This document shows, one piece after another, positions 29,916 to 45,077 of a stretch of DNA of 64,000 bases. Numbering within the stretch: position 1 is the stretch's first letter; the number at the start of each line of letters is the position of its first letter. The notes under the pieces were generated by a model. It was not told where the DNA came from, made no database searches, and saw only the letters and a list, made by a program, of their open reading frames with translations. The DNA is taken from contig OZ024740.1 of assembly GCA_964016885.1 (NCBI GenBank), positions 223,076,001-223,140,000 on the forward strand, written 5' to 3'. Source of the DNA: Eledone cirrhosa (taxonomy: Eukaryota). Both the position numbers and the translations under genes were made by a program.

Positions 29916-30566
29916 ATATATATAAACAAATATACAATCAATATATGTAGCTAAGTGATTGGACTTTGAAGTGTTGGAAATAGTTTAAATGCCTGGGTTG
30001 TTTGGTATTCGATTCCTCATGGGGGCTGATGGCATCTTCTTTTTATGTCTTTTGAGGGTACCCTCCCCCCGCCCCCCGTTTTATAAGTTATTTTGTTGCA
30101 TCTCTGAACATAAGCACATCAGCCTATACATTTATTTATTTATATATATGTGTGTGTAATGTGCGCTGGTAATATGGTAAAATGCACCGAGATGTAAAAC
30201 AGTTGTCATTAGGAAGGACATCCAGCAGCAGCAGAAATCATGCAAGAACTGGAAGGCATGCAAGCAAGAAGTAGCTCCTCGCAAGATTGTTCATATGTTC
30301 CATATTTGGCATGGTTTCTATGGATGACATGTGACAAAATGTGTACTTTTTTTTCAATATACTTTTTTTTCTTTCACTAAATGTCCCCCCACCCCTTTTT
30401 TTTTTGCATCTACCTTCTATTTCATTTAAGTGTTAAGCTTATATATCATGAATATGTGTTGTTGTCTGCTACTGATGTTTTCTCATGTTCTTTTACTCTA
30501 TACAGACACACAAACACACACACAAATATAAATTGTGTAGAGTTAGTTATATTGGTAGAGTTAGTT

Positions 30567-30760
30567 ATATTTGAAAAAAAGAAAAGAATCACTTTGCTTG
30601 TGGTTGGTATTCTATAATAATTTAATTTCATATATTCTTTTCGATTTTACAACTTTGCTATATACATCTACACACAAAAAATTGTAAAATTATAAAGTTA
30701 AATAATTATAGAATACCAACTACAAGTGAAGTCATTATTTTCCTTTAAAAAAGAAAATAT
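30567..30760. repeat. ~190-bp fold-back made of the terminus of the element at 41562-43410
   Basis: Imperfect inverted arms; AACTACAAGTGAAGTCATT.TTTTCCTTT matches 43372-43405. Confidence 0.7.
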
Positions 30761-30777
30761 ATATATATACATATATA

Positions 30778-31937
30778 TCATCATCATCATCATTTTACGT
30801 CCGCCTTTCCCTGCTTGCAAGGGTGGGACAGGTCCTATTCAGCATCTCTCTACTTGTCGCGGTCCTTCGTCATCTCCTCTGTGAGTTTCAGCGATCTGAG
30901 GTCTGCTCTCACCACCCCCACCCATGTTTTTCATGGTCTACCTCAACTGCGTCTTCCTTCTACTGGGATTTCTTGGTACTTCTTTACTCAGCGGTCATCC
31001 TCCATGCGCATCACATGTCCATACCATCTCAGCCTTCTCTCCTGCACGCCACAACTTATCTCTCTTATACCCAGTTTCTTTCTCAACTCGTCTATGCTTG
31101 GTTGTTCACGCACATTGACATTGCACATCCAACGGAGCATACTTGATTCCTTTCTCTCCAACCATCGCATATCTTCTGCAGTTGCTGCCCATGTCTCACT
31201 ACCATGCAGCATCACGCATCTCACACACGCATCATATAACCGTCCTTTCATACGCAGGCACAAACCCTTCTTTGTCAACAGAGAAAGCAGCTCCCTAAAC
31301 CTCTTCCAACTAGTCCTTATTCCCTGATACTATGGCCTCAGAACAGCCCCCTCCCATGCTAATCTGATCACCTAGGTACCGGAAGCTATCAACCACTTCT
31401 ATAGAACCCACCTGCATTGGAAAAATGTGTATATCACTGCGATTACTACTGTCAACTTTCCATTTACATCTACTGCATACGTAGTTTTCCCTACTTGATA
31501 GTTTGCCTGCTATCCCACTACATCTCTTGTGTTCCCAAGATCTGCATTGCATACATTTTATGGAATTTATGCCAGCTCCTGTCCTACATATCGAACTTGG
31601 TCATTTGCCTGATGGAATCAGAGTATTGTCCTCTCTCTCTTCTACTTATCAACACTTTTGTTTTAGCTATGTTCACTCTCGGGCCTCTTGATTCCAACTG
31701 TTCTTTCCATGGCCAGAATTTATTCTCTAACTCCTCCACTGATTCTGTTATAAGAACCAGATCATCAACATAGAGAAGTTCCCATGGGCATCCAGTCTTA
31801 ACCTCCTCTGTTATGGCTTGGAGGACTATAATGAACAAGAGCGGGCTGAGGACTGAACCCTGATGTACACCTACTTGTATCTGGAATTCCTCACTAATCT
31901 CCATTCCTATTCTCACTTTACTGGCAGTACCCCTGTA
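30778..31937 (-). mobile_element. RTE LINE family A, 5'-truncated
   Basis: ORFs 31584-31985 (GVHQGSVLSPLLF..YVDD), 31310-31552, 30988-31278; (CAT)n tail next to (TA)n. Confidence 0.93.
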
Positions 31938-32214
31938 TTTATATATAGGTGGTGAATTGGTCGTTAGAATGTCAGAGGACAACATTGTCTTTCATCCATT
32001 CAAGGCCAATAAAGAAAAGTACCAGTAAAGTACTGGGCTCAATTCTTCCTGTATATTTTTTTCTCAATTCCTTTCACTCACTCTCTCTATCCTTCAATGG
32101 AATAAATCTACTGTATTGAGGCCTGGAGAGGAGATGGGCTCTGCTAGATTTAAACAATGCCCTAAAACTCCTTTAATCTATATTAATAATAAATATTTCC
32201 TCTATGGGTATTTC

Positions 32215-32552
32215 ATTTCATCATTTCATTTTACGTCCACTTTTCCCTGCTTGCAAGGGTGGGACAGGAACTGATTCTGGCTTGATTTTTACAGCTGGAT
32301 TACCTTCCTAACACCAACCTCATTTACAGTGAGTGCTGGGTGCTTTTTTGCTGCGGCACCTCCACTACAACTTTGTAGTGGAATGATAGGGACCCCGGTC
32401 CCTATTATCTCATTTCTACAGCTGAGTAAACTGGAGCAATGTGAATTAAAGTGTCTTGCACAAGGAAACAACACATCACCTGGTCTGAGAATAGAACTCA
32501 CAACCTTTCGATTGTAAGGCCAATGCTCTAACCACTAAGCCATGTGCCTCCA
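32215..32552 (-). mobile_element. SINE family 2 (tRNA head + CORE-like domain + RTE-derived tail)
   Basis: Reverse complement of 47048-47398; (CATTT)n tail. Confidence 0.9.
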
Positions 32553-32957
32553 TTTATATAGATATACAATCTTTATTGAGTCCACTTCGGATTTTGGTCT
32601 TTGTATCTATTATAGCTGTGTTTATATATATATAAGAACTAACATATGTTTAATGATTATATAATGGCATATGTATTTGTAGGATGTGTAACTGGATTAG
32701 CTTCATGGTGATGATATAATATACCAATTAAACTAAACATGAAATTCTCTGTAAAAAAAACGGAAAGCACACTGAAATATAGAAAGTAGCTGATAGAATA
32801 TTTAGAAATGGGTGTTTAATATTTATTTTTACATCAACGTATCTCATATTTTTATTTTGGGGAAAAATCTAGAAAAAGTTAAATTACTCATAAACATAAT
32901 ATTGGCAACTTACTCTATAGATCATCATCAATATTATTATCATTATTATATATAAGT

Positions 32958-33180
32958 GTGGTGGATTGGAGTATTGGTAGAGTGTTGGATAACATATTTT
33001 GTGACATATAAGTTAAAGCTCTTTATATTCCGTGTTAAAATCCTGCCAAATTTAGCTTTGCCTTTCATCCTTTCGGAGTCAATAAAATAAAGTAACAGTC
33101 ATGCACGGGGGTCAATTTAATCGAATTTTCTCCTTCCCCCAAATTGCTGGCCTTGTGCCTAAATCAGAAACCATTATTAT
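32958..33180 (+). mobile_element. SINE family 1, diverged full-length copy with (TTA)n tail
   Basis: GGTGGATTGGAG..TTTGCCTTTCATCCTTTCGGAGTC..GCCTAAATCAGAAACCATTATTAT. Confidence 0.8.
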
Positions 33181-33689
33181 TGTTATTACTATTATTATTG
33201 TTATTGCTATTTTCTTGAAGAGATGAGTCTTATCTGTCTCTTGGAGTAACTGGTATTGATCATCTGAAATTATTTTGGCCAGTAAACATACAAAAAGCAA
33301 AAACAATCACAGGCACAAGAAACTCAATAGATATATTTCAAGCTGAAAACCCTTTGCTGAGATTGGCAGAGCAACTCTAGCAACAAACATCTGATGCCCA
33401 GATCACCAATGGCACATCCAAATTAAGCCTAATAAATCTTCATTATCCACCTCTCTTGAATTACTATTCATGAATATGGTAGAACAAATAAGTAGGTAGA
33501 TTAACGATGCAATGAACACCTGGAAAACATTTGATAGCTACATTGATCAGTTTGAGTGATAACCTTATAAAACTATCAAGAGAATTCTACGATTGACAGT
33601 TTAGAAGCTTCCTTGGTAGTTAATAAAGCTTATGCATAAAGAGGGCAGCTTCACTATTGAAGGACATTTAGCTGATATAGGTTACATAT

Positions 33690-34212
33690 ACAGAATCTTG
33701 GACAGCTGATCAATGAGGAATACAGTCATATAGAGGTATTAAATAGACAAATCCAAGCTGGATCATGTGTATTCAGAAAACTGAATGATATCATGAAAAA
33801 GTACGATGTTATTAGTCTTGAGTTGCAGAGTGTTTGAACTATGTATAGTAATAATTACATACACAACAGAGATATGATTGATGACTAAGAACATGGAACA
33901 GAAGCTTAAAACAGCACAAACAAATATGGAAATATGCATGCTATGAATCACTAAAAAGGAAAGAAAAATGTGTCAATGTATAAGAGAGCAAACAAAAGGA
34001 GAAGACATCATAAAACATATTAGGAAAAGAAAATGAAAGTGAGAAGGACATGTGACATGGACAAATGACAACAAATGGACAAAACTATGTTTGGAATAGA
34101 GATTGAGGGCTTGTGGGATGAGGTAGAAGGAGGTGGTCGGGAATCTTATTGGCATTACATAGATGAGAGCAGGACAATATATGAACAATTGGTACTGGCT
34201 GATGATGATGAT
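33690..34212 (+). mobile_element. Old RTE (BovB-like) C-terminal remnant
   Basis: IREQTKGEDIIK..KRK.K.EGHV..KWTK; (GAT)n tail. Confidence 0.55.
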
Positions 34213-34319
34213 ATAGAAGCTGGCTTGCATATTTTTGGATGCAATATTTAATTAAAATTTCTAACACAAATCTTGAATAAACAATACAGATAATGCTTAG
34301 TGATATATATATGTAAGTC

Positions 34320-34522
34320 CAATTATTGCTAGTAGGGAAAGCAGTCGTTAAACTATGTTGATGATTATACACACACACATATATATATATAAACACCTAT
34401 CCTTCTTAGCTGGGAAAGCAGTCGTTAAACTATGATGATGATGATACTTATATATATATGTATATATATAAACTTATACCCTTGTTAGCAGGGAAAGCAG
34501 TCATTATACTACGATGATGATA
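34320..34522 (+). repeat. Three stacked ~50-bp RTE 3' termini separated by (TA)n/(CA)n
   Basis: GGGAAAGCAGTC(G/A)TTA(A/T)ACTA..GATGAT three times. Confidence 0.75.
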
Positions 34523-35361
34523 TATATTTGATATATATATATATATTCCATAGATGTTTCCTACTATCATATGATAAGCCATTAATATTTCATGATATTT
34601 ATCTGACAGGTTGACAAGCATATGATATATTTAGAACCTGTTGTCAGTGAATGATACCAATGTATGCGATCAGGCAACAGTGTATATGTTATTTTCTACT
34701 TTGTATTTTCAAGATACGGAAATTACTCTATATTGTTATTTGCAATTAGCAAGTTAGTGGAATTACTCCTGTCAGCTTCAAATTGAATTATATATCTTTT
34801 AATTTTCCTTCTGTCAAATCATTGATTTAAATAGTAAAGTGTTTAACTTTATCAATCCAATTACACTTTGATCAGCTCTTCTAATTCAATCACATATTGA
34901 ATTCAATTCAATCACTATTTGGGAGGAAAGTAGAAAACGTCCTACACAGCATGAAATAGTTTTACTTCATACACATATACATTAGTATAACCTTGTGCAT
35001 GTGGGGTCAAAATCAAAGCCTAACACATCCTCACATATATATATTATTAAAATGACATTGTGTATGTGTACACATGTGTGGTCAAACTCAAAGCCATACC
35101 CCCCCACACAGACACATACATACACATGTATATTACTAAAACAATATTTCGTATGTGTGTACATGTGTGTGTGCAAGATACTTTCACCTAGACCTTCAAA
35201 AACAATTTAGATGGAATTAAATCCTTAAATCCTTGGCAAAGAAGTAGGTGTATGCTGCAATGTGTTTCATAGAAATCAAATTATATACTCTAATATGCTA
35301 CCATTATATCATTCATTTCACGTAAAATGTTCCTTTCCTTTTGTTTTCTCTTTGGAAACAG

Positions 35362-35453
35362 GGTAGCATTGTTTCTGTTTCTCTGGTAGAATACAAATTA
35401 TTTAATGTTCAATGTAAAGCACAAAGTGAAAGTTCAAATCCAGTTGCTATATT
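35362..35453 (+). CDS. Candidate host exon (GSIVSVSLVEYKLFNVQCKAQSESSNPVAI), unknown gene
   Basis: Long pyrimidine tract + CAG acceptor, open frame, GTATGT donor (which lies in a TATG repeat); phase matches 38738. Confidence 0.2.
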
Positions 35454-35816
35454 GTATGTATGTATGTATGTATGTATGTTAGTCAATAATTTTAAATTCT
35501 GGTTTTATTATCATTCCATTTACCCTTGAGTTGAATGAATTATCACAGCTTAAATTGGTTCTTATTTGGAGCTAACAACCCTCTTAGATCTCACAGATGA
35601 TGTTATCTCAAACAAAAGTTTGTTTTGGCATGTTTTCTGTGGTCGGATTCCTGTCTTAACACCAACTGCTTTACACGGTATACTAAGTGCATTTTATAAT
35701 GGCTCTAATACTAGATAGGTTGTTGTGTCCTAACCATGACTGAGGGATCCTTTCACTCCTATGCTGTCATATATCTTATCAGTAGAGCTCATGGACATTT
35801 ATACATACATTATTAA

Positions 35817-35997
35817 TTGGCAGTATCGGTAGATGGTCGGACGCCATGCTTTCCAGCATAGTTACGTCCCTTTACGATCTGAGTTCAAATCCCGCCGAAG
35901 TTGACTTTGCCTTTCATCCTTACGGGGTCGATCAAATAAAGTACCAGTAATGCACTGGGTAATTGCTGGCCTTGTGCCTAAAGTAGAAACAATTATT
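35817..35997 (+). mobile_element. SINE family 1, young copy
   Basis: Nearly identical to the units of the 6786-7418 trimer. Confidence 0.92.
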
Positions 35998-36647
35998 AGT
36001 TAATTTAATTTAAGGCTCTTCAAAGTTGTGCATAAACTATAAGAATGTGAGAAAAACTTAAATTGAGAACATACTCTGAATACTTTTACATGCCATTACT
36101 AAGTATATAACTGAGCAAATGGGGGTAAATCTACATGATCACTAAACCTGTTAGAAATAGCAGCTAAAACTCCCACAAATCTCTCAAATAATTAATGACT
36201 GAGCATACCTATAGGACTGATCATATAACTAGAAAATACCTACACATGTAACCTGCAGTTATAAGCAGTTGTATATTGGTATGATAGGTACCTGTTTTAT
36301 ATTTGAATATGCATGAATAATATTCTTTTTTATTATAAAGTTTTTATTTTATTTGTCTACCCTTCTATATATAACTATTTGTAACATATATCAATCAATC
36401 AGATTCATGCAACTGATACAGCCAGTTGTTGGCAGGAGGGGAGAGCACTCTAGACGCTTTTGTAGTCAGCAGATGTCATTGGTCTCTATTCTCTGTGCTG
36501 TGACCAGTTCAGTCTTTGATGTTGTTAGAACAGGATTTTTTTTGGCCTGCCTCTCCTTCACCCTCCTGCAACAGTGTTCTGAAGGATGGTTTTACACAAG
36601 GAATTTTGGTGGGGTAGATGAACATACCAAACAAGCTTCTACTCTAT

Positions 36648-36878
36648 GTAGGATGACCGATGGGTGAAGAAGTGCAAGGAAGTCCCAGTGGAGGGAAGAT
36701 GCAGTAGAGATAGACCACGAAAAACATGGGCGGTGGTGGTGAGAGCAGACCTCAGATCGCTGAAACTCACAAAGGAGATGACGAAGGACCATGACAAGTG
36801 GAGAGATGGTGTGCTGAATAGGACCCGTCCAACCCTTGCAAGGAGGGAAAAGCAGACGTAAAATGATGATAATGATGA
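36648..36878 (+). mobile_element. RTE family A 3' end
   Basis: DRWVKKCKEVPVEGR..RPRKTW; CCCTTGCAAGGAGGG..ACGTAAAATGATGAT. Confidence 0.9.
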
Positions 36879-36887
36879 TATATACTG

Positions 36888-36942
<55 letters not shown>

Positions 36943-36970
36943 GTGGTAACACAACAGTTAGTTCACCATA

Positions 36971-37010
36971 CCGAGAACAATTGTTTCACCTTAGCGGATC
37001 ATCAGCTCGG
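36971..37010 (-). ncRNA. Minimal type I hammerhead ribozyme motif (left pLTR)
   Basis: CCGAG-CTGATGA-TCC-GCTAA-GGT-GAAA-CAATTG-TT-CTCGG; palindromic ACAATTGT helix III, GUU triplet. Confidence 0.8.
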
Positions 37011-37172
37011 AATGGGCATGGTTATAGGAACAGGAAGGACAACCTTACGTACGCGCATGCGCAGAAACCCAGTAACTTCACACAGGCAATACTAGACTGC
37101 GTGCGAGAGATGTAAGCGAGATAACTGCGAAAGTCCGAAAAGTTCTTAGGTTGAAAATAAAATTACAAAAAA

Positions 37173-37714
37173 TCAGTCCGGAGCCTTGTAGTTATGCAAT
37201 AGGTGTTTGCCGACGTGTAGACAACGTGTGAAAAATTCATTTCTCGTGTTTAGGCAATCACTATTACGTAATCTCTTTAGAATAGTTATTCGTTCGTCAA
37301 TACATAAGCCACACGTCGTATTTTCCCTTGCGTATGGCTTGGACTTAGTGATGGCTTTCCATTGAATGGAGTAGTGTATACTTGAGTCCTTGAGGGACCA
37401 TACGTGGCTCACGAGTTTCGTGGATGAACGTCTGTCCGGGTACCTGAAGGTAGACGGGTGGTTCAGGAAACGTTCCTTAAATCGGCCCTCCGCCATGCCC
37501 ACATAGGATTTGACCTTCTGTGGTTCGTTTGGTCGGTTGGAAGTGACCACAGCTTCAGAAATTACAGCTGGTGTGTTGCATTGCTTTTGAAGGGGGCAAG
37601 CTTCAGGCTTACGGCACGAGCACCCTGGTGGGGTGTTGCTCCTAGGGCTGCTGGTGATGTTGGCCTTCATGTTCTTAGCGCATGAGTATCCTAGTTTATC
37701 TTTGTGTAGGTTAA
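37173..37714 (-). pseudogene. Penelope-like linker + GIY-YIG endonuclease C-terminus (left arm)
   Basis: KLGYSCAKNMK..CSCRKPEACPL..C..VISEAVV..SYVGMAEGRFKERFLNH..STKL..VWSLK..CGLCIDE..LNTRNEF..RCLH; the N-terminal part of ORF 37173-37907 is just antisense of the right arm. Confidence 0.85.
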
Positions 37715-38162
37715 CCACCAGGGTGCTCTTGCCGTAAGCCCCCTTCAACAGCAATGTAACACACCAGCTGTAATTTATGAAGCTGTGGTTACTTCCAACC
37801 GACCAAACGAACCACAGGATGTCAAATCCCATGTGGGCATGGCGGAGGGCCGATTTAAGGAACGTTTCTTGAACCACCAGTCTACCTTCAGGTACCCGGA
37901 CAGACATTCATCCACGAAACTCGCGAGCCACGTATGGTCCCTCAAGGACTCAAGTATAGACTACTCCATTCAATGGAAAGCCATCACTAAGTCCAAGCCA
38001 TACGCAAGGGGAAATCCGACGTGTGGCTTATGTATTGACGAACGAATAACTATTCTAAAGAGATTACGCAATAGTGATTGCCTAAACACGAGAATTGAAT
38101 TTTTCACACGTTGTCCACACATCGCCAAACACCTATTGCATAACTACAAGGCTCCGGACTGA
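37715..38162 (+). pseudogene. Penelope-like GIY-YIG endonuclease C-terminus (right arm)
   Basis: VIYEAVV..SHVGMAEGRFKERFLNHQSTF..CGLCIDE..RCPH; 11-bp deletion near 37740 relative to the left arm. Confidence 0.85.
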
Positions 38163-38311
38163 TTCTTTGTAATTTTATTTTCAACCTAAGAACTTTTCGG
38201 ACTTTCGCAGTTATCTCCCTTACACTTCTCGCACGCAGTCTAGTATTACCTGCGTGAATTGACCGGGTTTCTGCGCATGCGCGTTCTTACGGTTGTTCTT
38301 CCTGTTCCATT

Positions 38312-38351
38312 CCGAGCTGAGGATCCGCTAAGGTGAAACAATTGTTCTCGG
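38312..38351 (+). ncRNA. Minimal type I hammerhead ribozyme motif (right pLTR)
   Basis: CCGAG-CTGAGGA-TCC-GCTAA-GGT-GAAA-CAATTG-TT-CTCGG; helix I extends to CCATTCCGAG/CTCGGTATGG. Confidence 0.8.
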
Positions 38352-38484
38352 TATGGTGAACTAACTGTTGTGTAACCACTTCTACCTAACTCGTCCCATG
38401 GACTGAGTGCTCTACCACTACGGATATTACTTCCAGTGTTCCACCACTATATATATATATATATATCAGTAGAGAGAGAGATTT

Positions 38485-38515
<31 letters not shown>

Positions 38516-38737
38516 CATACATACTTACATATATGCATATATGTTAAAAGTTGATGATGATAATACATGTATATATATATATATGTACATTATCATCATC
38601 ACTTAACATCAGCTTTCCCTGATATATACTTTACAACTTCTCTAAGCAAGTTAGCTAGTTTGTAATGTTTTACGTAGAGATAGCTGAACAATAATTAATA
38701 TTGACTACTTTTGCAGTCGGTGCATATTTTATTTCAG

Positions 38738-38769
38738 TCATACTGATGACCTCAAAATAACCCCTGAAG
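38738..38769 (+). CDS. Candidate 32-nt host micro-exon (HTDDLKITPE), unknown gene
   Basis: TTTTATTTCAG acceptor and AG|GTGAGT donor, both near consensus; non-repetitive context. Confidence 0.35.
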
Positions 38770-39459
38770 GTGAGTGCAAATCAATTTAGCACATTGCCAC
38801 TAATGAACAATCTGACGTAGAAATTAAGAGAAGGATAAAAAAATAAAAAAATCAAGCAAGCAACAAAAATATATTGCTATAATAGTATCTATGAATTAAG
38901 TGTTTAATAAAATAACAAAAATGTTTAGCCTACTCAAATTTCTCACGTAGACAGGCCATTTACCTCATTACGAAAGAGCATCATGTTGATGAGTTGTTTT
39001 CCTGTTGATCAATCGCTTTAACCACAATGATCGATATTTTCTCTCATATTTCTATAGCTACCAAATCACTTTGCATATATATATGTATGTAAAAGGTGAA
39101 AGGAATGCCTGTGCTTATGTGTCTCTAGGGTGAGAGTGATATGCTATATAACTTACATATCAATGTATTGCATAATGACTTAATAAATACTGTGGTATTA
39201 GATCGAATTTGTGCGTTAGATTTTGAATTGTATTCTTATTGATTTTGAATCAGAAAATGTGTGTGAGATAAAAACGCATGGGACAGTCTGAGTAGGGTCA
39301 CATTCCAAATGCTAAAACCACAAACAGAATAAATGGGAAAAAAGCAACAAAATATCCGTAGTAGAATAGTTTGTATAGGTTTGATTTTACAAACAGAAAA
39401 ACTGAGCTTATTATATAAAGCTTTTGCATGGAGTTTTAGAACATTGATTCAGTTAAGTT

Positions 39460-39815
39460 ATTTCACATCTAATAATTGTTTCTACTTTTGGCACAAGGCC
39501 AGCAATTACCCAGTGTATTACTGGTACTTTATTTTATCGACCCCGTAAGGATGAACGGCAAAATTAACCTCGGCGGGATTTGAACGGGATTTCACATCTA
39601 ATAATGGTTGCTGATATAGGCACAAGGTCAACAATGTTGTGGGGGGCGGGGAAGTCGATGAAATTGACTTCAATTCCTTATTTCTACTTTATTTTATCAA
39701 CCACGAAAGGGTGAAAGGCAAAGCTAACAGCAGTAGGAATTTAACTCAGACTGTAAAGGGCTGTAAATCAATGTCACAAATTATGCTGTCCGATGCTCTA
39801 CCGATCCTGCCATTT
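39460..39815 (-). mobile_element. Two adjacent SINE family 1 copies; the younger, truncated copy has a 17-bp TSD
   Basis: ATTTCACATCTAATAAT at 39460-39476 and 39589-39605 flanks the truncated copy; an older copy follows. Confidence 0.85.
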
Positions 39816-39829
39816 TTACAATAAACAGT

Positions 39830-40270
39830 AGAATGTGTGAATTCACAGAATGTGTAGGAGCTAGAGCTTAGAGCAGGTGAGAAGTTTAGGAGACTAGTAC
39901 CCCTGTCAATGGCAATAACACAGGAGTTTTGATTGAAGAATATCTGTGAAAGTAAAAATGAAATGAAGCAAGTATTCTCCAGTGAATGTGTAATGTTAAT
40001 GTATATAATGAACATAGCCTAGATTAAGCATGAGGAATTAGATGTAGTGAGAAAGAAATAAGATTGCATTGGTATGGACATGGGATGAGTATGGGAGATT
40101 AGAGGTTTATAAAGAAATGTATAGAAATCAGTTAATGAGATCCATGGAAAAGGCAAACCAAGGACAACATGGGATGATATAGTAAACACTGACCTTAGAA
40201 AGGTGCACCTTATGACAGAGAAGAAATAAAAACATGGTGATTAGTGACATGCAGTACTGGGGTACATTCA
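39830..40270 (+). mobile_element. Old RTE C-terminal remnant
   Basis: KFRRLVPL, LHWYGH, KGKPRTTW recognisable. Confidence 0.6.
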
Positions 40271-40935
40271 CCTACTGGTATAAGAATGTGACATGACCCA
40301 GTCACCCTCATCTCTGACTTCACAACTTAGTATATATTTCCACTATCCCTGCGACCCTTTCTCTTTCTGTCCAAATCACCTCATTTCTCTACTTCACAGC
40401 TCTTTACCATCACTGTATAGCATCAAATCTATGCAAGATCACTTTCACCCTTTATCTCTCTTACATCACCCTATTAAATTCCACCACAATTATCATACTC
40501 CAGTGACACTTTCTTACCAATTATCTACCTTGTATCCCCCTCTTTAAATTCATGACATCATACTTGTGATCCTCTCTTCCAACTCATTCTTACTCAACCA
40601 TGAAACTATATCTATCACCCCTATCACTAATCCTTCTTCTGCTTAAACACATCAGGTCACTGCATGACATCATAGTGTTGGTGCTAGGAATATACTGTGA
40701 AAAGATTGGTGATAGGAAGGACAACCATCCATTAAAAAGCTTCAATAGTGTCAAAAAGATTACAATTTCCTTAGTGCTGGTGGAAAAATAAAATGCCCCC
40801 ATGCAGTCTGCAAAGTGTCGAAATGAGAGATGAAGCTCATCTGAAAAGTCTAAAGCTCTGATTAATTACTAACTTAGTCTGTGTCAACCAGCCCAATCCA
40901 TGCTAGCAGTGACTGCAGATGGTAACAAGTGATGA

Positions 40936-40985
<50 letters not shown>

Positions 40986-41432
40986 TGGCTGAGCCCTTGC
41001 ACCTACAACACTTTCCCACCAGTAGAAACTAAACATAAACAAAGCATACAATATACAAGCAGGACCTTGTCACCTGACTGGTCTAGTCTCAGCATGCCAC
41101 AACTGTCTAACCCATGCAAACATGGAAAACAGACAAGAAAGATTGGTGATGATAATGATGATATATATATACACACACAAGTAGTCTCTCCAACTTGTTC
41201 TAAATGAAATCTGGATTAAGGCTCAGTTTTGCTGCTGCTGATGTCGTTTATTTGCATACATCGATAAACTTACCAAAGACACTAACTTAGACCCACAGGC
41301 CTTTGACTATGTTTTATTTGCTTATAATCAAAGCATTCTGAATTTTAAAAAAAGGAATTGCTAGGAAAAACATTCAAACAGTTTGAACAACTGTGATGGT
41401 TTGAGAATGAAGATCAATACAAAGAAGAGAGA

Positions 41433-41555
41433 AATAATTGTTTCTACTTTTGGCACAAGGTCAGCAATTAACCAGTGGATTACTGGTACTTTATTTTATC
41501 GACCCCGTAAGGATGAAAGGCAAAGTTAACCTCGGCGGGATTTGAACTCTGAATG
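41433..41555 (-). mobile_element. SINE family 1, 5'-truncated
   Basis: AATAATTGTTTCTACTTTTGGCAC..CTCGGCGGGATTTGAACTC. Confidence 0.88.
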
Positions 41556-41561
41556 CAACTC

Positions 41562-43410
41562 TATAATATTATAAATTGGTAATCTAGTAAGTTCTTTGTT
41601 AACTTCGGTGGGAAGAATTTTAAAGTTTCCTGCTTAACTTTCCTGAAGAACTTTCTCGCATTCGTTGATGGCGATTATCAAACTGAGATCAGGTTGTGTT
41701 GTGATATGTGACTCTATATATAAGAGAGATTTGGATGTGTCTGAGGTGTGGGGTGCAGTGTTAATGAGTGTGGGAGTGAAGGGGTGTTGATGAAGATTTA
41801 AAGGAATTAAAGCCTACGCACACACACGCACACACACACGCACACACACACACACACACACATATATATACATACACAGAAATGGTGAAAGTTGACAACA
41901 AGAAGATAATGAGATAGCAGTGTTTAAGAAAGGGGCTGTAAAAGTTCCCTGCTGCTGGTTCCATTTCAGTAATTAACCTTTGATGAATATAACTGTTTCT
42001 ACTTTTGGCACAAGGCCAGCAATTATCACAGTACATTGCTGGTACTTTATTTTATCGACCCCGTAAGGATGAAAGGCAAAGTTTACCTCGGCGGGATTGA
42101 ACTCAGTCCATAAAGGGCCATAACTCTTTGCTGCATGGCATCAGACCCTCTACCGATACTGCCAATCCACCATCTTTTGATGAATATAATGTCAGAATGT
42201 TTTTCAAATTCGTTTCTTATAGCTGAATCAACTCTCTTAAATTTATACAGAATACATTCAACAATTTAAAGATGAAAGTGGTACGAACCACTACTGAACA
42301 CAAAAACAATGATATTCCATCTTCAAATAACGGGATTCTCTCTCCTCTCTCTTTTCTTTAAAAAATCACATATTGAAAAAGAAAAATATCCAAATAGAAG
42401 TTGAAGACACCCACCCTTTCAAACATTCGATCGTTGAAGAGAAGAAAAACCCTCAGAGGTACACTAACAGTTCATTAATTTCCCCTTCTCCACTCCAATG
42501 TATATGTGAACTTAAATACTTGAGTAGATGTGTGTATAGATGTATTTGTATGTGTACAGGTATGTGTATACATGTGTATATGTATGTGTGTATATGTGTG
42601 TGTATATATGAATATATGTGTGTGCGTGTGTGTATGTGTGTGTGTATATATGCAATATATATGGTCTGAAAGTACATTTATATATAGGGAAGTGAATATG
42701 TTAGCTAGCACCCCCCCCCCCCACGCTTCCCCTCCCAAACCAATATCACCAACATACATTTCTGACAAATATTCCAAAACTATCCTTATTCTTCTCTTTG
42801 CTGTCATCCCATTCTTATCAAAAGAGATGTATCTTACACTTCATTAACCCCACCACCACCACCAGACAAGCACCTAAATTCATCTTTAAATTGTTGAGGT
42901 ATTCTTTATAAATTTAAGAGAGTTGATTCAGCTGTAAGAAATGAATTTGAAAAACATACTGCCATTATATTCATCAAAGGTCATTTATTGAAATGGAACC
43001 AGCAGCAGGGGACTTTTACAGCCCCTTTCTTAAACACTCCTATCCCATTAACTTCTTGTTGTCAACTTTCACTATTTTGTGTGTATATATGTGTGTGCAT
43101 GTGTGTGTGTATGCTTTAATTCCCTTAAATCTTCATCAACACTCCTTCACTCCCACACTCATTAACACCACACCCCACACCTCAGACACATCCAAATCTC
43201 TTTTGTATATAGAGTCACACATCACAACACAACCTGATCTCAGTTTGAGAAAGTTCTCCAGGAAAGTTAACCAGGAATCTTTAAAAATCTTCCCACCGAA
43301 GTTAACAAAGAACTTACTAGATCTACCAACTCATAATATTATAATATTATAAAATTAAATCAATTTGTTTAGAACTACAAGTGAAGTCATTCTTTTCCTT
43401 TTTATTCAAA
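41562..43410. mobile_element. Large diverged inverted-repeat element, Penelope-like by architecture
   Basis: Arms 41562-42276 (interrupted by a SINE) and 42879-43343 are reverse complements; ~600-bp spacer; the right arm extends to (TA)n at ~43410. Confidence 0.7.
41993..42173 (-). mobile_element. SINE family 1 inserted in the left arm, with TSD
   Basis: TTTGATGAATATAA on both sides; a single copy in the opposite arm (TTATATTCATCAAAG ~42965-42979). Confidence 0.93.
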
Positions 43411-43552
43411 TATATATATATAGAAAGAGAGAGAGGGGGAGAGAGGGGGGGGGGGTAAAGAGGGAGAGAGAGTCTGGAACTAGCTGTTGAAATGGCAAGA
43501 GTTCAGCTGTCAGGCCCAAACTCTTTCTAATATATATATATATATATATCTA

Positions 43553-43770
43553 TAAAGTAAACAGCAATAACAAAGCAAACAACATATTACATTAAAGTAA
43601 TATATTAATTTAACACTTGAAATAACAGGAAAAGAGTCTTAACGTTTTGGACACTATTCTTTCAGCAGATAATATAAATAGACGTAAAAGATGAAATAGA
43701 AAGAAAAATGCAAGAAGAGGGAGGAATGGAAAAAAATGAGAAAAAACACATGGCATATTCAGTGAGCCAT
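43553..43770 (-). mobile_element. Penelope-like pLTR family P1, degenerate hammerhead
   Basis: Homologous to 17648-17830; AAGAGTCTTAACGTTTTGGAC..TTCAGCAG. Confidence 0.55.
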
Positions 43771-43794
43771 TGTGGATATATATATGTGCAGATA

Positions 43795-44191
43795 AATTTC
43801 TTTATTAGCCACAAGGGCACAAAAGAAGGGGACAAAAACAAATGGAGAGTTTACATACAGGTATATGAAAATAAAACTATTAATACAATAACAAATAACA
43901 ATTGAAATCCCCAATAGGGGGGGGGGGGGTTATACAGGGGTTGTACACACACCAAAAAAATGTACAACCCTCATCTCCTCTTTTTCCTCAACCTACAGGC
44001 TTATATAGAGAGAAGGCCCAACCACTCAGGCCATCTTTGCCACATTCACCCACCTTTTATAACATTTGCTGGAGTACAGCACCTCTCTTTCTCCATCCTG
44101 ATTCTTCTTCCAAAATGATATTTGAAAAAACGAATCAGTTGCTTGCCGGAGAGAAAGGTGTCTGACCTCAGTCCTTTTAACCCCGTCCACC
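43795..44191 (-). mobile_element. Tx1/L1-like 3' end, 5'-truncated, 17-bp TSD
   Basis: ATATATATGTGCAGATA at 43778-43794 and 44192-44208; minus strand WWTGLKGLRSDTFLSG..FFKYH..KRWVNVAKMA, then a 3' UTR ending GGCTAATAAAGAAA. Confidence 0.75.
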
Positions 44192-45077
44192 ATATATATG
44201 TGCAGATAGAGAGATAGATACACACGCACACATAAACACATACACATACGTAATCTTGAAAAGAGAAGAGAAAAATACAATTATATGTCTGGTTGATGTA
44301 GTTAAGCATGAGTTCTTATTTTTTCATCAATTTCTGTTACTTTTCTTAAAATTTAATGATAGACCAAGAATAGACTTTCCTACTTTCAGAAAACATTCAA
44401 TCTTTTTTTTACGCAATGTATAATTTTAAACTAATTTTAACAATAAGACTATAATTTTCCAGACTAATAATAAATATTTTAATATCTACATATACTCTAC
44501 TTTTCAATCTCTTATAGTCATTAGATGTCTTATTTCAGGATACATATGTATATTCTATCCGAATAAATTTAAACTAGGAATCATTATTTGTACACAGAGT
44601 GATAATGTTCTTATCCACTACACCAGTTTTTCCACAATTGGATCTCAGGAAAAATTGAAACATTCTAGGATTTCATGAGATTAGATGTCTGATTAAAATT
44701 GAGAATAAGTTTATTATAAATGTATTATTGCGAAAATAACTGAATTTATATCAGTGATTTCTGGTCATGACCCATTCATTGAATGAGATAATAATCCTGC
44801 AGTTGGGAGGTTGCATTTTAAAATACACTGTGCACAGAAATAGATTGATGAAATAGGTACCAGTAAAATAAGACAGATTCTGATTCACTCTAATATTCTC
44901 CCTACAACAGTTATTAAAAGTTCTATATGAAGAGAATTGCATAATATCAGAAGCTTAATAAATTTAGGATAGTGGGGACAGTTGTCTATAAAATATAGGT
45001 GTGGATTCTGTGATTTTTAGAAAATTATATAAGATCATAGCAACAAAATAAATTTTGGAATAATATCTATACTATAT

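What the first reader, a model, noticed from the sequence alone, without database searches (positions are those of the whole stretch)
36939..38445. 1.45-kb Penelope palindrome with GIY-YIG and a hammerhead in each arm
Arms of ~690 bp flank an 83-bp spacer. They carry complementary mutations (VIS..YVG versus VIY..HVG), so the ancestral VIY..YVG motif can be rebuilt from this locus alone. Each arm ends in CCGAG-CTGA(T/G)GA..GAAACAATTGTT-CTCGG with a palindromic helix III, the signature of dimer-dependent minimal hammerheads. Because the arms are inverted, any transcript carries only one sense ribozyme, buried in a long duplex (inference).
Basis: partly seen in the sequence, partly recalled or inferred. 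Interest (0 to 1): 0.75.

Follow-up and report, generated by a model that had tools for sequence, protein, structure and literature searches.

The report
Twin head-to-head Penelope-like retrotransposon insertion
This 1.5-kb inverted repeat is two dead, 5'-truncated copies of a very abundant Penelope-like retrotransposon joined head to head inside a (TA)n/(GA)n microsatellite, likely made in one integration event that primed DNA synthesis from both cut strands; this insertion form is already described for such elements and is the commonest one in this genome, so the locus is ordinary.

Summary
Window 36939-37714 (- strand) and 37715-38448 (+ strand) are two copies of one repeat family, 669 nt alignable with 35 mismatches. 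Each carries a GIY-YIG endonuclease remnant (VIS..YVG on the left, VIY..HVG on the right) and an identical minimal type-I hammerhead motif.

- The "83-bp spacer" is not a spacer. It is the extra coding sequence of the longer arm, and the arms abut directly.
- The right arm carries a 65-nt 3' "tail" that the left arm lacks.

The family is very abundant: at least 4248 first-look candidates and 2563 exact hammerhead 35-mers. In an unselected sample of 37 hammerhead loci, 20 are such head-to-head pairs, each with exactly one tailed arm.

Published work already describes inverted 5'-truncated copies, one-sided tails, (TA)n targeting and dimer-type hammerheads in these elements. It also reports two-strand cleavage and extension with two reverse-transcription start sites in vitro. 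The best explanation is therefore a single double-strand target-primed insertion, which is an inference.

Verdict: a new member of a known kind, of low interest. Ribozyme activity is untested.

The parts
36939..37714 (-). Arm 1 (no-tail arm): a 5'-truncated copy covering ref 1484-2259, with the endonuclease C-terminal part plus the 3' UTR. It ends ...CCACTTCT and runs directly into (TC)n/(GA)n.
   Evidence: BLAST to the family reference is 94.3% over 776 nt. The flank is shown.
37715..38448 (+). Arm 2 (tail arm): a 5'-truncated copy covering ref 1567-2325. It ends ...CCACCACT and runs directly into (TA)n.
   Evidence: BLAST is 92.5% over 759 nt. The flank is shown.
37632..37714 (-). It is the extra 83 nt (ref 1484-1566) of the longer arm and is coding sequence upstream of the CxCX5C linker.
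   Evidence: The frame stays open through it. It is homologous to the L013 ORF ...KLGYSCAKNMKAHITSSPRSNTP... and to the reference coordinates.
37173..37714 (-). Endonuclease ORF remnant of arm 1, including the stop codon. Motifs: CxCX5C linker, VIS (mutated GIY), YVG, R, H, CxxC-E, N, CxH.
37716..38162 (+). Endonuclease ORF remnant of arm 2, including the stop codon. Motifs: VIY, HVG (mutated YIG), R52, H56, E111, N126. Only the last Cys of the linker is kept.
   Evidence: The model's best fold match is the I-TevI catalytic domain, Z 5.8.
36966..37015 (-). Hammerhead motif of arm 1 (N7 = U). Predicted cleavage is after the U at 36976.
38307..38356 (+). Hammerhead motif of arm 2 (N7 = G): helix I CCAUUCCGAG/CUCGGUAUGG, core CUGAGGA...GAAA, stem II CC/GG flanked by U...U, helix III ACAAUUGU. 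Predicted cleavage is after U38346.
   Evidence: The column-by-column comparison uses the Hydra-clade table.
38384..38448 (+). The 65-nt 3' 'tail' (ref 2261-2325), present on arm 2 only.
   Evidence: In one search the inverted copy matches only query 1-668 of 730.
36893..36938 (.). Left target flank: (TA)n followed by (GA)n.
38449..38481 (.). Right target flank: (TA)n CAG TA(GA)n. It is possibly the second copy of a target-site duplication of about 30 bp made of compound microsatellite. This is an inference; the repeat makes it unprovable.

Best explanation
The locus is a head-to-head pair of two dead, 5'-truncated copies of a high-copy Penelope-like retrotransposon with the Hydra-clade motif signature. 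It was likely created in a single integration event in which both strands of a (TA)n/(GA)n target were nicked and each 3' end primed reverse transcription of the element's RNA.

Shown:
- The two arms abut without filler or target repeat at the centre.
- Each arm's 3' end faces outward into microsatellite.
- One arm ends at the family's proximal end point (ref 2260, ...CUUCUA) and the other at the distal one (ref 2325), so only one arm carries the 65-nt tail.
- The same one-tail rule holds in 28 of 33 opposite-arm loci examined.

Inferred:
- The left flank's ...GAGA-3' end primed at CUUCU (2-3 nt of microhomology).
- The right flank's bottom-strand (TA)n end primed at the UAUAUA that follows the tail in tandem templates.
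- The two cDNAs (776 and 734 nt) stopped independently and were joined 3' end to 3' end, each serving as template for the other's second strand.

The hammerheads and GIY-YIG remnants are passengers of the 3' part of the element. At this locus they are predicted to be inert. There is no reverse transcriptase part, and a catalytic Tyr is mutated in each arm. In any read-through RNA the sense ribozyme would pair with its antisense copy.
For: Architecture:
- In one search the inverted copy matches only query 1-668 of 730, so it lacks the tail.

Recurrence:
- 10 of 10 simple long pairs have exactly one tailed arm (window, L003, L005, L017-L019, L022-L025). Their junction overlaps range from -10 to +4 nt, measured on the 9 of these listed.
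- In an unselected sample (the first 40 rows of the exact-motif list, which make 37 loci), 20 of 37 are one-tail head-to-head pairs, 11 are single copies and 6 are other forms.
- L005 and L018 partner arms are reciprocal nearest neighbours (d = 0.014-0.016 against medians of 0.03-0.056). L018's arms are both about 10% from the reference but 1.6% from each other, which points to one source and one event.

Target:
- The outer ends run into (TA)n in nearly all pairs.
- (GA)n/(CT)n abuts ...CCACTTCT in the window and in L065.
- In tandem full-length copies the template continues ...CCACCACT-ATAT-ACGTCTCC after the tail.

Literature:
- Craig et al. [quoted passage not shown] Repbase Penelope-13_HM carries an inverted 5'-truncated copy with a hammerhead on both strands.
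- Frangieh et al. 2024 (PMC11167929) report that a Poseidon PLE protein cleaves and extends both target strands in vitro. They also report that the tail equals the stretch between two reverse-transcription start sites.

Family identity.
Against: - No experiment or polymorphism data exist for this locus, so the one-event origin is inferred from architecture.
- The window's own arms are not each other's nearest relatives (d = 0.053, ranks 10 and 20 of 25). That fits independent decay under a star-like family history but gives no positive support.
- 5 of 33 opposite-arm loci break the one-tail rule (L016, L020, L021, L044, L059).
- The short pairs are nearly symmetric: the median difference between the arms' 5' ends is 8 nt in 17 pairs. 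Two independently stopping cDNAs do not predict this, so a fold-back or run-off component may exist.
- The in vitro data come from another clade (Poseidon). There the start sites showed no homology to the cut DNA, whereas here I infer microhomology.
Confidence: 0.7

Rival explanations
1. Fold-back origin. A single cDNA, or later a replication fork, switched template onto its own nascent strand and produced an inverted duplication of one inserted copy.
For: The short pairs are near-symmetric, with a median difference of 8 nt between the arms' 5' ends in 17 pairs. Some loci carry only small inverted pieces at the 5' junction (L009, L011, L043, L073).
Against: In the window the arms start 83 nt apart in element coordinates (ref 1484 against 1567). 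They also end differently, at 2259 against 2325. A fold-back copy of the tailed arm would carry the tail and continue into the flank. The untailed arm instead ends at the same defined point (ref about 2260) in 28 of 33 opposite-arm loci. Among the 9 long pairs the arms' 5' ends differ by a median of 471 nt.
Confidence: 0.15
2. Two independent insertions of the same family into one (TA)n hot spot, in opposite orientation and at different times.
For: The family targets (TA)n and has thousands of copies. The window's arms are as diverged from each other (5.2%) as random copies are.
Against: A second insertion into the microsatellite beside the first would leave target repeat between the two 5' ends. 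Here the arms abut with 0 nt between them, and in the other 8 long pairs the range is -10 to +4 nt. The strict pairing of one tailed with one untailed arm (28 of 33) is not expected from independent events, since single copies show both end types (5 tailed, 6 untailed of 11). Pairs make up 20 of 37 sampled loci, far above chance for about 0.7 motifs per Mb.
Confidence: 0.05
3. A selected functional unit: a hairpin-RNA (small-RNA source) gene or a regulated ribozyme pair.
For: A read-through RNA is predicted to form an imperfect duplex of about 690 bp. Both hammerhead 35-mers are intact.
Against: Substitutions between the arms look neutral: 15 nonsynonymous and 4 synonymous codon differences, two uncompensated indels, and a catalytic Tyr lost in each arm. 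The same architecture recurs with arbitrary arm lengths. Nothing shows transcription.
Confidence: 0.05
4. An assembly or sequencing artefact, such as a chimeric palindromic read.
For: Inverted PLE structures are known to trouble assemblies (Craig et al. 2021, passage). No laid contig spans the locus.
Against: The arms differ by 35 substitutions and two indels and have different outer ends. An artefactual palindrome would be near-identical and symmetric. The same form occurs at dozens of loci on several chromosomes.
Confidence: 0.02

Closest known systems
Hydra clade of Penelope-like elements (Craig et al. 2021, PMC8557442). [quoted passage not shown]
   Same: - A single ORF with a C-terminal GIY-YIG domain.
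- A CxCX5C linker and no CCHH between GIY and YIG.
- DKT in the reverse transcriptase, and CxxC/CxH around E and N.
- (TA)n target and a unit under 3 kb.
- A type-I hammerhead near the 3' end written CUGANGA-U...U-GAA with a palindromic stem III.
- Tandem (pLTR) and inverted 5'-truncated arrangements, and a one-sided tail.
   Different: - It is a different family. At the protein level it is at most 50% identical to the database relatives.
- Stem II of its hammerhead has only 2 canonical pairs (CC/GG), against 3-7 in the 29 Hydra-clade rows of the paper's table.
- The tail is 65 nt, not 30-40.
- The copy number is in the thousands, whereas the paper reports only a small number of Hydra families outside cnidarians.
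- The N-terminal RWK motif reads RWR here.
Poseidon element PAc of Anolis in vitro (Frangieh et al. 2024, PMC11167929)
   Same: Both target strands are cleaved and extended. There are two reverse-transcription start sites, and the distance between them equals the genomic 'tail'. The target is AT-rich. The hammerhead is not needed for insertion.
   Different: It belongs to another clade. There the start sites lie inside the next unit's ORF, and the hammerhead overlaps the start codon. Here both end points lie in the 3' UTR, 28 and 93 nt after the hammerhead. The authors saw no homology between the cut DNA and the start site, whereas here 2-6 nt of microhomology with the microsatellite is possible.
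Minimal, dimer-type hammerheads of metazoan PLEs (Cervera and de la Pena 2014, PMC4209133)
   Same: A canonical core, a short helix I, an extra nucleotide after position 9, and a palindromic 15.2-16.2/loop 3 that allows an intermolecular helix III. They are massively abundant and mostly sit in truncated copies. The paper also notes pairs '~100-700 bp' apart 'in opposite strands'.
   Different: That paper stresses a long helix II (6-8 bp) and a conserved G10.1-C11.1 pair. Here helix II is CC/GG with U.U beside the core. Helix I can extend to 10 positions with one U.U mismatch.
L1 5' inversions by twin priming (recalled from the LINE-1 literature; not read here)
   Same: Both ends of a staggered break prime reverse transcription, which gives an inverted 5' part joined by microhomology.
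   Different: In L1 the second primer anneals internally on the same RNA, so the two parts do not overlap in element coordinates. Here both arms start from dedicated 3'-terminal start points and duplicate the same 690 nt, which forms a true palindrome.

Membership tests
Penelope-like element, endonuclease-containing (C-terminal GIY-YIG) | A single ORF with a reverse transcriptase followed by a C-terminal GIY-YIG endonuclease | tested here: met
   Longer family copies (L013) read the reverse-transcriptase motifs (KDHK..CRLINPA, FDIVDFYPSI, YRDDG) and then the endonuclease on one strand, in three frame pieces. Relatives P0071, P0083, P0066, P0046 and P0087 carry both in one protein. The window's two arms hold only the endonuclease part.
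Penelope-like element, endonuclease-containing (C-terminal GIY-YIG) | GIY and YIG motifs plus the catalytic R, H, E and N | tested here: met
   Alignment A2 shows invariant G43, R52, H56, E111 and N126. GIY reads VIY on the right and VIS on the left. YIG reads HVG on the right and YVG on the left.
Penelope-like element, endonuclease-containing (C-terminal GIY-YIG) | GIY-YIG fold | tested here: met
   The AlphaFold2 model has pLDDT 67 and pTM 0.62. Among 48161 chains the two best matches are the I-TevI catalytic domain (Z 5.8, rmsd 3.0, 80 aligned) and T4 EndoII (Z 4.2). The UvrC GIY-YIG domain scores Z 2.8. These Z values are middling, so support is moderate.
Penelope-like element, endonuclease-containing (C-terminal GIY-YIG) | A match to the Pfam GIY-YIG (PF01541) or RVT_1 profiles | tested here: not met
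   There was no Pfam hit at E<=1 for either arm or for the L013 ORF pieces. One of 8 alignment members reaches PF01541 at E 0.084. One relative reaches RVT_1 at E 6.9e-5, below the cut-off. The Atlas gives one cluster (score 0.94) with PF01541 on 22% of its members. The paper also needed profile methods for Hydra endonucleases.
Penelope-like element, endonuclease-containing (C-terminal GIY-YIG) | The reverse transcriptase groups with PLE/telomerase reverse transcriptases in a phylogeny | not tested
   No reference PLE or TERT sequences were available through the tools.
Penelope-like element, endonuclease-containing (C-terminal GIY-YIG) | Insertion forms: heavy 5' truncation, partial tandems (pLTR), adjacent inverted 5'-truncated copies, and a one-sided tail | tested here: met
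   There are 4248 first-look candidates for the 3' part against 505 for the 5' part. Tandem upstream copies occur in L034, L036, L033 and L027. An inverted copy plus pLTR occurs in L030, L031 and L037. The one-tail rule holds in 28 of 33 loci.
Hydra clade of PLEs (Craig et al. 2021) | Linker motif CxCX5C upstream of GIY-YIG | tested here: met
   The left arm reads CSCRKPEAC. Relatives read CNCRNKEQC and similar. The right arm is truncated inside the linker.
Hydra clade of PLEs (Craig et al. 2021) | The CCHH motif (two Cys between GIY and YIG) is absent | tested here: met
   VIYEAVVTSNRPNEPQDVKSHVG contains no Cys, and relatives have no conserved Cys pair there.
Hydra clade of PLEs (Craig et al. 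2021) | DKG is changed to DKT, and an N-terminal RWK motif is present | tested here: met
   LSDKTNNIY occurs in L013 and in full-length copies. Relatives read ADKT (5 of 6) or ADKS (1 of 6) at this position. The N-terminal motif reads RLRWRA, that is RWR rather than RWK, so this half is only approximately met.
Hydra clade of PLEs (Craig et al. 2021) | [quoted passage not shown] | tested here: met
   CGLCIDE ... N ... CPH (right arm) and CLH (left arm). C105, C108, C135 and H137 are invariant in A2.
Hydra clade of PLEs (Craig et al. 2021) | Insertion into (TA)n and an element shorter than 3 kb | tested here: met
   (TA)n lies at the outer ends of nearly all copies examined. The unit is about 2.57 kb from ACGTCTCC... 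to ...CCACCACT.
Hydra clade of PLEs (Craig et al. 2021) | Clustering with Hydra families in a reverse-transcriptase/endonuclease phylogeny | not tested
   No reference sequences were at hand. Named relatives come from Exaiptasia, Apostichopus and a Solemya-associated record, which fits the clade's reported hosts.
Type-I minimal hammerhead ribozyme of PLEs | Catalytic core C3 U4 G5 A6 N7 G8 A9 ... G12 A13 A14, an A15.1-U16.1 pair, and H17 that is not G | tested here: met
   CUGA(G/U)GA ... GAA-AC AAUU GU-U|C in both arms. Across the 2563 exact genomic matches N7 varies among G, A, U and C, as seen in the first 100 rows.
Type-I minimal hammerhead ribozyme of PLEs | Helix I formed by the 5' and 3' flanks | tested here: met
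   CCGAG/CUCGG gives 5 bp, extendable to CCAUUCCGAG/CUCGGUAUGG with one U.U. A frequent family variant, CCAUUACGAG, breaks one pair without compensation.
Type-I minimal hammerhead ribozyme of PLEs | Helix II of several base pairs with G10.1-C11.1 | tested here: not met
   Only CC/GG (2 bp, loop GCUAA) flanked by U.U is compatible with the core. ViennaRNA prefers an alternative pairing that uses G12. The published Hydra-clade motifs have 3-7 bp.
Type-I minimal hammerhead ribozyme of PLEs | A short, palindromic helix III that allows a dimer | tested here: met
   ACAAUUGU is self-complementary. The predicted homodimer is -32.0 kcal/mol against 2 x -12.1 for the monomers, with intermolecular helices I and III.
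Type-I minimal hammerhead ribozyme of PLEs | A match to an Rfam hammerhead covariance model | tested here: not met
   There was no hammerhead hit at E<=1 in 30000-45000, and no hit of any family at E<=10 in 36900-38450.
Type-I minimal hammerhead ribozyme of PLEs | Self-cleavage after H17 | not testable with these tools
   This needs in vitro transcription. The published PLE minimal hammerheads cleave weakly, and only as dimers or with protein.

The most novel reading that the evidence does not exclude
In this genome a Hydra-clade Penelope-like family integrates mostly (at least half of its hammerhead-bearing loci) by symmetric two-strand target-primed reverse transcription. The two strands use two different start points 65 nt apart, which leaves thousands of palindromes that each have exactly one tailed arm. 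The very short, nearly symmetric palindromes, whose arms begin at ref about 2152-2197 just upstream of the hammerhead, would then mark run-off at a discrete RNA 5' end such as a promoter in the pseudo-LTR. If so, the genome itself would be an in vivo record of the PLE integration mechanism that has so far been seen only in vitro in another clade. It would also hold thousands of potential double-stranded-RNA sources.
Probability: 0.3. Interest if true: 0.45.

Novelty: new member of a known kind. Interest (0 to 1): 0.2.

Why it matters
For the locus itself, little. It is a decayed, non-coding relic of a described insertion type, and its hammerheads and endonuclease remnants are predicted to be inert.

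For annotation, it shows three things:
- A family that neither Pfam nor Rfam recognises can still fill a 3-Gb genome with thousands of copies.
- Its palindromes should be masked as PLE/Hydra rather than read as hairpin genes.
- Apparent 'spacers' and 'arms' should be mapped on a full-length copy before they are interpreted.

For the field, the strict one-tail rule in head-to-head pairs (28 of 33 loci) is genomic evidence from a second clade. It is consistent with the two-strand, two-start-site behaviour seen in vitro for a Poseidon element. A full census here could make the still 'undefined' origin of inverted PLE structures testable.

Tried and rejected
- Rfam: no hammerhead hit at E<=1, and no hit of any family at E<=10 on the element itself. 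The mir-297, mir-3149 and similar hits lie on TA/TG microsatellites and were disregarded.
- Pfam: nothing for the arms or the L013 ORF pieces. Six relatives gave only one sub-threshold RVT_1 hit. The alignment members gave only one PF01541 hit at E 0.084. PF26215 and PF28514, listed for relatives, are not in the local Pfam copy, so their names are unknown to me.
- PDB by sequence profile: 0 matches at E<=1.
- The search for homologous proteins with the endonuclease ORF and 'longer' lengths: none of 446 candidates scored.
- The search of earlier findings: nothing on this genome.
- Sequencing runs: no RNA holder is listed. The contigs of X1, X2, X3 and X5 laid on 36700-38700 are short repeat fragments. 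None spans the junction or the whole stretch, so they say nothing about this locus or its expression. They do show family copies whose untailed end (window 38383/38384) runs into (TA)n.
- Foldseek 'pdb' could not be run because the machine was busy. VIA-align wide was used instead.
- The nearest-neighbour test of the window's own arms was uninformative.
- Not attempted: a covariance model from the published Hydra hammerheads (it would need typed literature sequences); a reverse-transcriptase phylogeny (no references available); a search for other Hydra families in this genome to test hammerhead covariation.
- A target-site duplication cannot be delimited because both flanks are microsatellite.
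Full report
**1. What is in the sequence**

The region 36939-38448 is an inverted repeat. The repeat finder reports arms 37027-37597 / 37738-38308 (571 nt, 94% complementary) and 36930-37015 / 38307-38392 (86 nt, 93%). A global alignment of the two arms gives 669 aligned positions, 35 mismatches (5.2%; 18 transitions, 17 transversions, 10 at CpG) and 24 gap columns. The gaps are one 11-nt and one 13-nt indel.

Both arms read open through an endonuclease remnant to a stop codon. The left arm has VIS...YVG and the right arm VIY...HVG. The 35-nt hammerhead string occurs exactly twice in the 64-kb window, at 36971-37005 (-) and 38317-38351 (+). It occurs 0 times in 100 shuffles.

**2. The "spacer" and the arm ends**

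The family is very abundant in the window's own 3.0-Gb genome. A 730-nt query gave 4248 first-look candidates, of which 40 were scored, all at 91-100% identity. The hammerhead 35-mer with N7 free matches 2563 times exactly (1278 + 1285), and the reversed control matches 0 times.

I mapped both arms on a longer copy (ref = L013 5384-7708). The left arm is ref 1484-2259 and the right arm is ref 1567-2325, and they abut at 37714/37715. This has two consequences.
- The 83 "spacer" bases are simply ref 1484-1566 of the longer arm. They are coding sequence that continues the frame and is homologous to the ORF of other copies.
- The right arm carries 65 nt (38384-48) that the left arm lacks. In one search the inverted copy matches only query 1-668 of 730.

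The hammerhead lies inside the 3' UTR, 27 nt from the outer end of the left arm and 92 nt from that of the right arm.

**3. What the element is**

Longer copies encode reverse-transcriptase motifs (KDHK..CRLINPA, FDIVDFYPSI, YRDDG) followed by the endonuclease. Full-length units are about 2.57 kb. They sit in partial tandems in which the tail runs straight on (...CCACCACT-ATAT-ACGTCTCC...) into a 5' UTR and an ATG. Some have an inverted 5'-truncated copy in front. All 5 full-length copies whose ORF I read have premature stops.

Profile and sequence libraries do not recognise the proteins.
- Pfam gives nothing for the arms or the ORF pieces.
- A PDB sequence-profile search gives 0 matches.

Other searches do find relatives and a fold.
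- The reverse-transcriptase part has 538 relatives at E<=0.001 in the protein collection. The best is 4e-121 at 46% identity, and named ones come from Exaiptasia, Apostichopus and a Solemya-associated record.
- Five of these relatives carry the endonuclease at their C-terminus, at 30-38% identity to the window's ORF.
- The endonuclease alone has 4229 cluster representatives at E<=0.001.
- A model of the right-arm endonuclease (pLDDT 67) matches I-TevI's catalytic domain best among 48161 chains (Z 5.8). T4 EndoII is next (Z 4.2), and both are GIY-YIG nucleases.

The alignment shows the GIY, YIG, R, H, E and N positions. It also shows a CxCX5C linker, no cysteines between GIY and YIG, CxxC before E and CxH after N, and DKT in the reverse transcriptase. 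Craig et al. 2021 give exactly these features for their Hydra clade, together with (TA)n insertion, a length under 3 kb and readily detected hammerheads. I read passages of that paper, its supplementary metadata and its hammerhead table. I therefore file the element as a new family with the Hydra-clade signature.

**4. The hammerhead**

The motif reads CCAUUCCGAG-CUGA(G/U)GA-U-CC-GCUAA-GG-U-GAA-ACAAUUGU-U|CUCGGUAUGG.
- The core, A15.1-U16.1 and H17 = U are canonical.
- Helix I has 5 pairs and can extend to 10 positions with one U.U.
- Helix III is a perfect 8-nt palindrome: 2 bp plus a tetraloop as a monomer, 8 bp as a dimer.
- The U...U beside stem II is the same as in most Hydra-clade rows of the published table ("ctgatgat tgcc ... 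ggca tgaa").

ViennaRNA gives -9.1 kcal/mol for the ribozyme-compatible monomer fold against -12.1 for the best alternative. The homodimer, with intermolecular helices I and III, comes to -32.0.

Departures from the published motifs:
- Stem II has only two canonical pairs, against 3-7 in the table.
- A frequent family variant breaks a helix I pair without compensation.
- No Rfam model matches, even at E<=10.

Published PLE minimal hammerheads cleave weakly, only as dimers (Cervera and de la Pena 2014; I read parts 1-2 of 4) or only with the element's protein. They are also dispensable for insertion in vitro (Frangieh et al. 2024, main text). So the motif fits the published kind, and its activity is untested.

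At this locus a read-through RNA of either strand holds one sense and one antisense copy.

**5. How common the architecture is**

Ten simple long pairs were examined: the window, L003, L005, L017-L019 and L022-L025. Several were chosen because they looked like pairs. In all 10, one arm ends at ref about 2260 and the other at about 2325. In the 9 of them listed the arms meet with -10 to +4 nt of overlap, and the outer ends run into microsatellite.

For an unselected view I took the first 40 rows of the exact-motif list (C1, 3.0-68.2 Mb), which make 37 loci.
- 20 are head-to-head pairs with exactly one tailed arm. L047 and L048 are identical including their flanks and are probably one segmental duplication.
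- 11 are single copies, 5 tailed and 6 untailed.
- 6 are other forms: L059 has both arms tailed, and L016, L043, L044, L045 and L073 are complex.

Over all loci with two opposite arms, 28 of 33 follow the one-tail rule. The 5 that do not are L016, L020, L021 (a tail-to-tail palindrome), L044 and L059.

The untailed end reads ...CCACUUCUA|(TA)n. In the window and in L065 it reads ...CCACUUCU|(CU)n. The tailed end reads ...CCACCACU|AUAU, and in tandem templates UAUAUA follows there.

Partner arms are reciprocal nearest neighbours in L005 and L018 (d about 0.015), intermediate in L022, and not nearest in the window (d 0.053; ranks 10 and 20 of 25).

**6. Most likely mechanism**

The literature I read states the following.
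- PLE insertions often have an inverted 5'-truncated copy adjacent at the 5' end, and a tail at only one end.
- Hydra families target (TA)n.
- A Repbase Hydra family carries such an inverted copy with a hammerhead on both strands.
- Hammerheads on opposite strands about 100-700 bp apart were seen in Schistosoma.
- A purified Poseidon protein cleaves and extends both target strands and starts reverse transcription at two sites, with the spacing between them equal to the tail.

Taken together with the geometry here, the best explanation is one integration event at a staggered break in (TA)n(GA)n. The geometry is 3' ends facing outward, 5' ends abutting, one tailed and one untailed arm, and overlapping element coordinates. 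In this model the top-strand 3' end (...GAGA) primed at CUUCU, giving the untailed arm. The bottom-strand 3' end in (TA)n primed at the UAUAUA beyond the tail, giving the tailed arm. The two cDNAs stopped at ref 1484 and 1567. They were then joined 3' end to 3' end, each templating the other's second strand. The (TA)n..(GA)n on both sides may be a target-site duplication of about 30 bp. All priming and joining steps are inferred; only the anatomy and its recurrence are shown.

The rivals fare as follows.
- **Fold-back:** it is contradicted for the window by the 83-nt offset and the unequal ends. It may contribute to the short, near-symmetric pairs, where the median offset is 8 nt in 17 pairs against 471 nt in the 9 long pairs.
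- **Two independent insertions:** they would leave target repeat at the centre, and would not give the one-tail rule.
- **A selected hairpin or ribozyme unit:** there is no sign of constraint, with 15 nonsynonymous against 4 synonymous codon differences, uncompensated indels and a catalytic Tyr lost in each arm.
- **An assembly artefact:** the arms are too different for that.

**7. Novelty and verdict**

Every component has been described: the clade, the (TA)n target, the pseudo-LTR and inverted forms, the one-sided tail, and the dimer-type hammerhead present on both strands of an inverted pair. My two literature searches found no paper that quantifies the one-tail rule or spells out a two-strand model for the inverted pairs. 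I read only the papers named above, and I did not see the supplementary figures of Craig et al. (the Hydra alignments).

The locus is a new member of a known kind and is ordinary. The modest added value is threefold: the clade assignment, the correction of the "spacer", and the family-wide statistics. Those statistics give a second-clade genomic footprint consistent with two-strand, two-start-site integration.

Noticed in passing
G000 loci L040-L068 (for example L046, L051, L054, L063): Most head-to-head pairs of this family are tiny. Their arms are 45-170 nt and nearly symmetric: both start at ref about 2152-2197, just upstream of the hammerhead (ref 2183-2232). The median offset is 8 nt in 17 pairs. 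This could mark run-off at a discrete RNA 5' end (a promoter in the pseudo-LTR?) or a fold-back mode.
   Followed up: partly
L047 (C1:35.17 Mb) and L048 (C1:36.10 Mb): The two loci hold an identical short palindrome, an identical 10-nt filler and identical flanks, in opposite orientation about 0.93 Mb apart. This is probably an inverted segmental duplication rather than two insertions.
   Followed up: no
L021 (C1:139.884 Mb) and L006 (C4:94.845 Mb): Other arrangements exist. L021 is a tail-to-tail palindrome joined inside the tail (both arms stop at ref 2286). L006 is a copy whose upstream part (ref 54-1017) is inverted relative to its 3' part (ref 1407-2325), with small shuffled pieces between them.
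   Followed up: no
window 36652-36861 (+) and 36862-36892: An open frame (...RDRPRKTWAVVVRADLRSLKLTKEMTKDHDKWRDGV...) is followed by (ATG/ATA)n. It looks like the C-terminal end and 3' tail of a LINE-type element. That resemblance is recalled and was not tested. It lies directly upstream of the (TA)n(GA)n into which the PLE pair went. A similar tail in reverse orientation lies at about 38540-38610, and one occurs beside L003.
   Followed up: no
window 35862-35999 and 39460-39766: Inverted repeats of 96-117 nt (75-94% complementary) flank the region at a distance of 3.5-3.7 kb. The right-hand side holds two to three direct copies at 129-160-nt spacing (I2, I4, D3, D4). They are probably copies of a short interspersed or satellite-like repeat unrelated to the PLE.
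   Followed up: no
window 38482-38538, 42564-42634, 34373-35172: The sub-threshold Rfam matches to mir-297, mir-3149 and others lie on TA/TG microsatellites and are composition artefacts.
   Followed up: no
family-wide: Hammerhead position N7 varies among the exact copies: mostly G, often A, rarely U or C. A common sub-lineage has CCAUUACGAG in the helix I 5' strand, which breaks a pair without a compensating change.
   Followed up: partly
one search hit list: Relatives carry precomputed Pfam accessions PF26215 and PF28514, which the local Pfam copy does not hold. Their names could not be checked.
   Followed up: no
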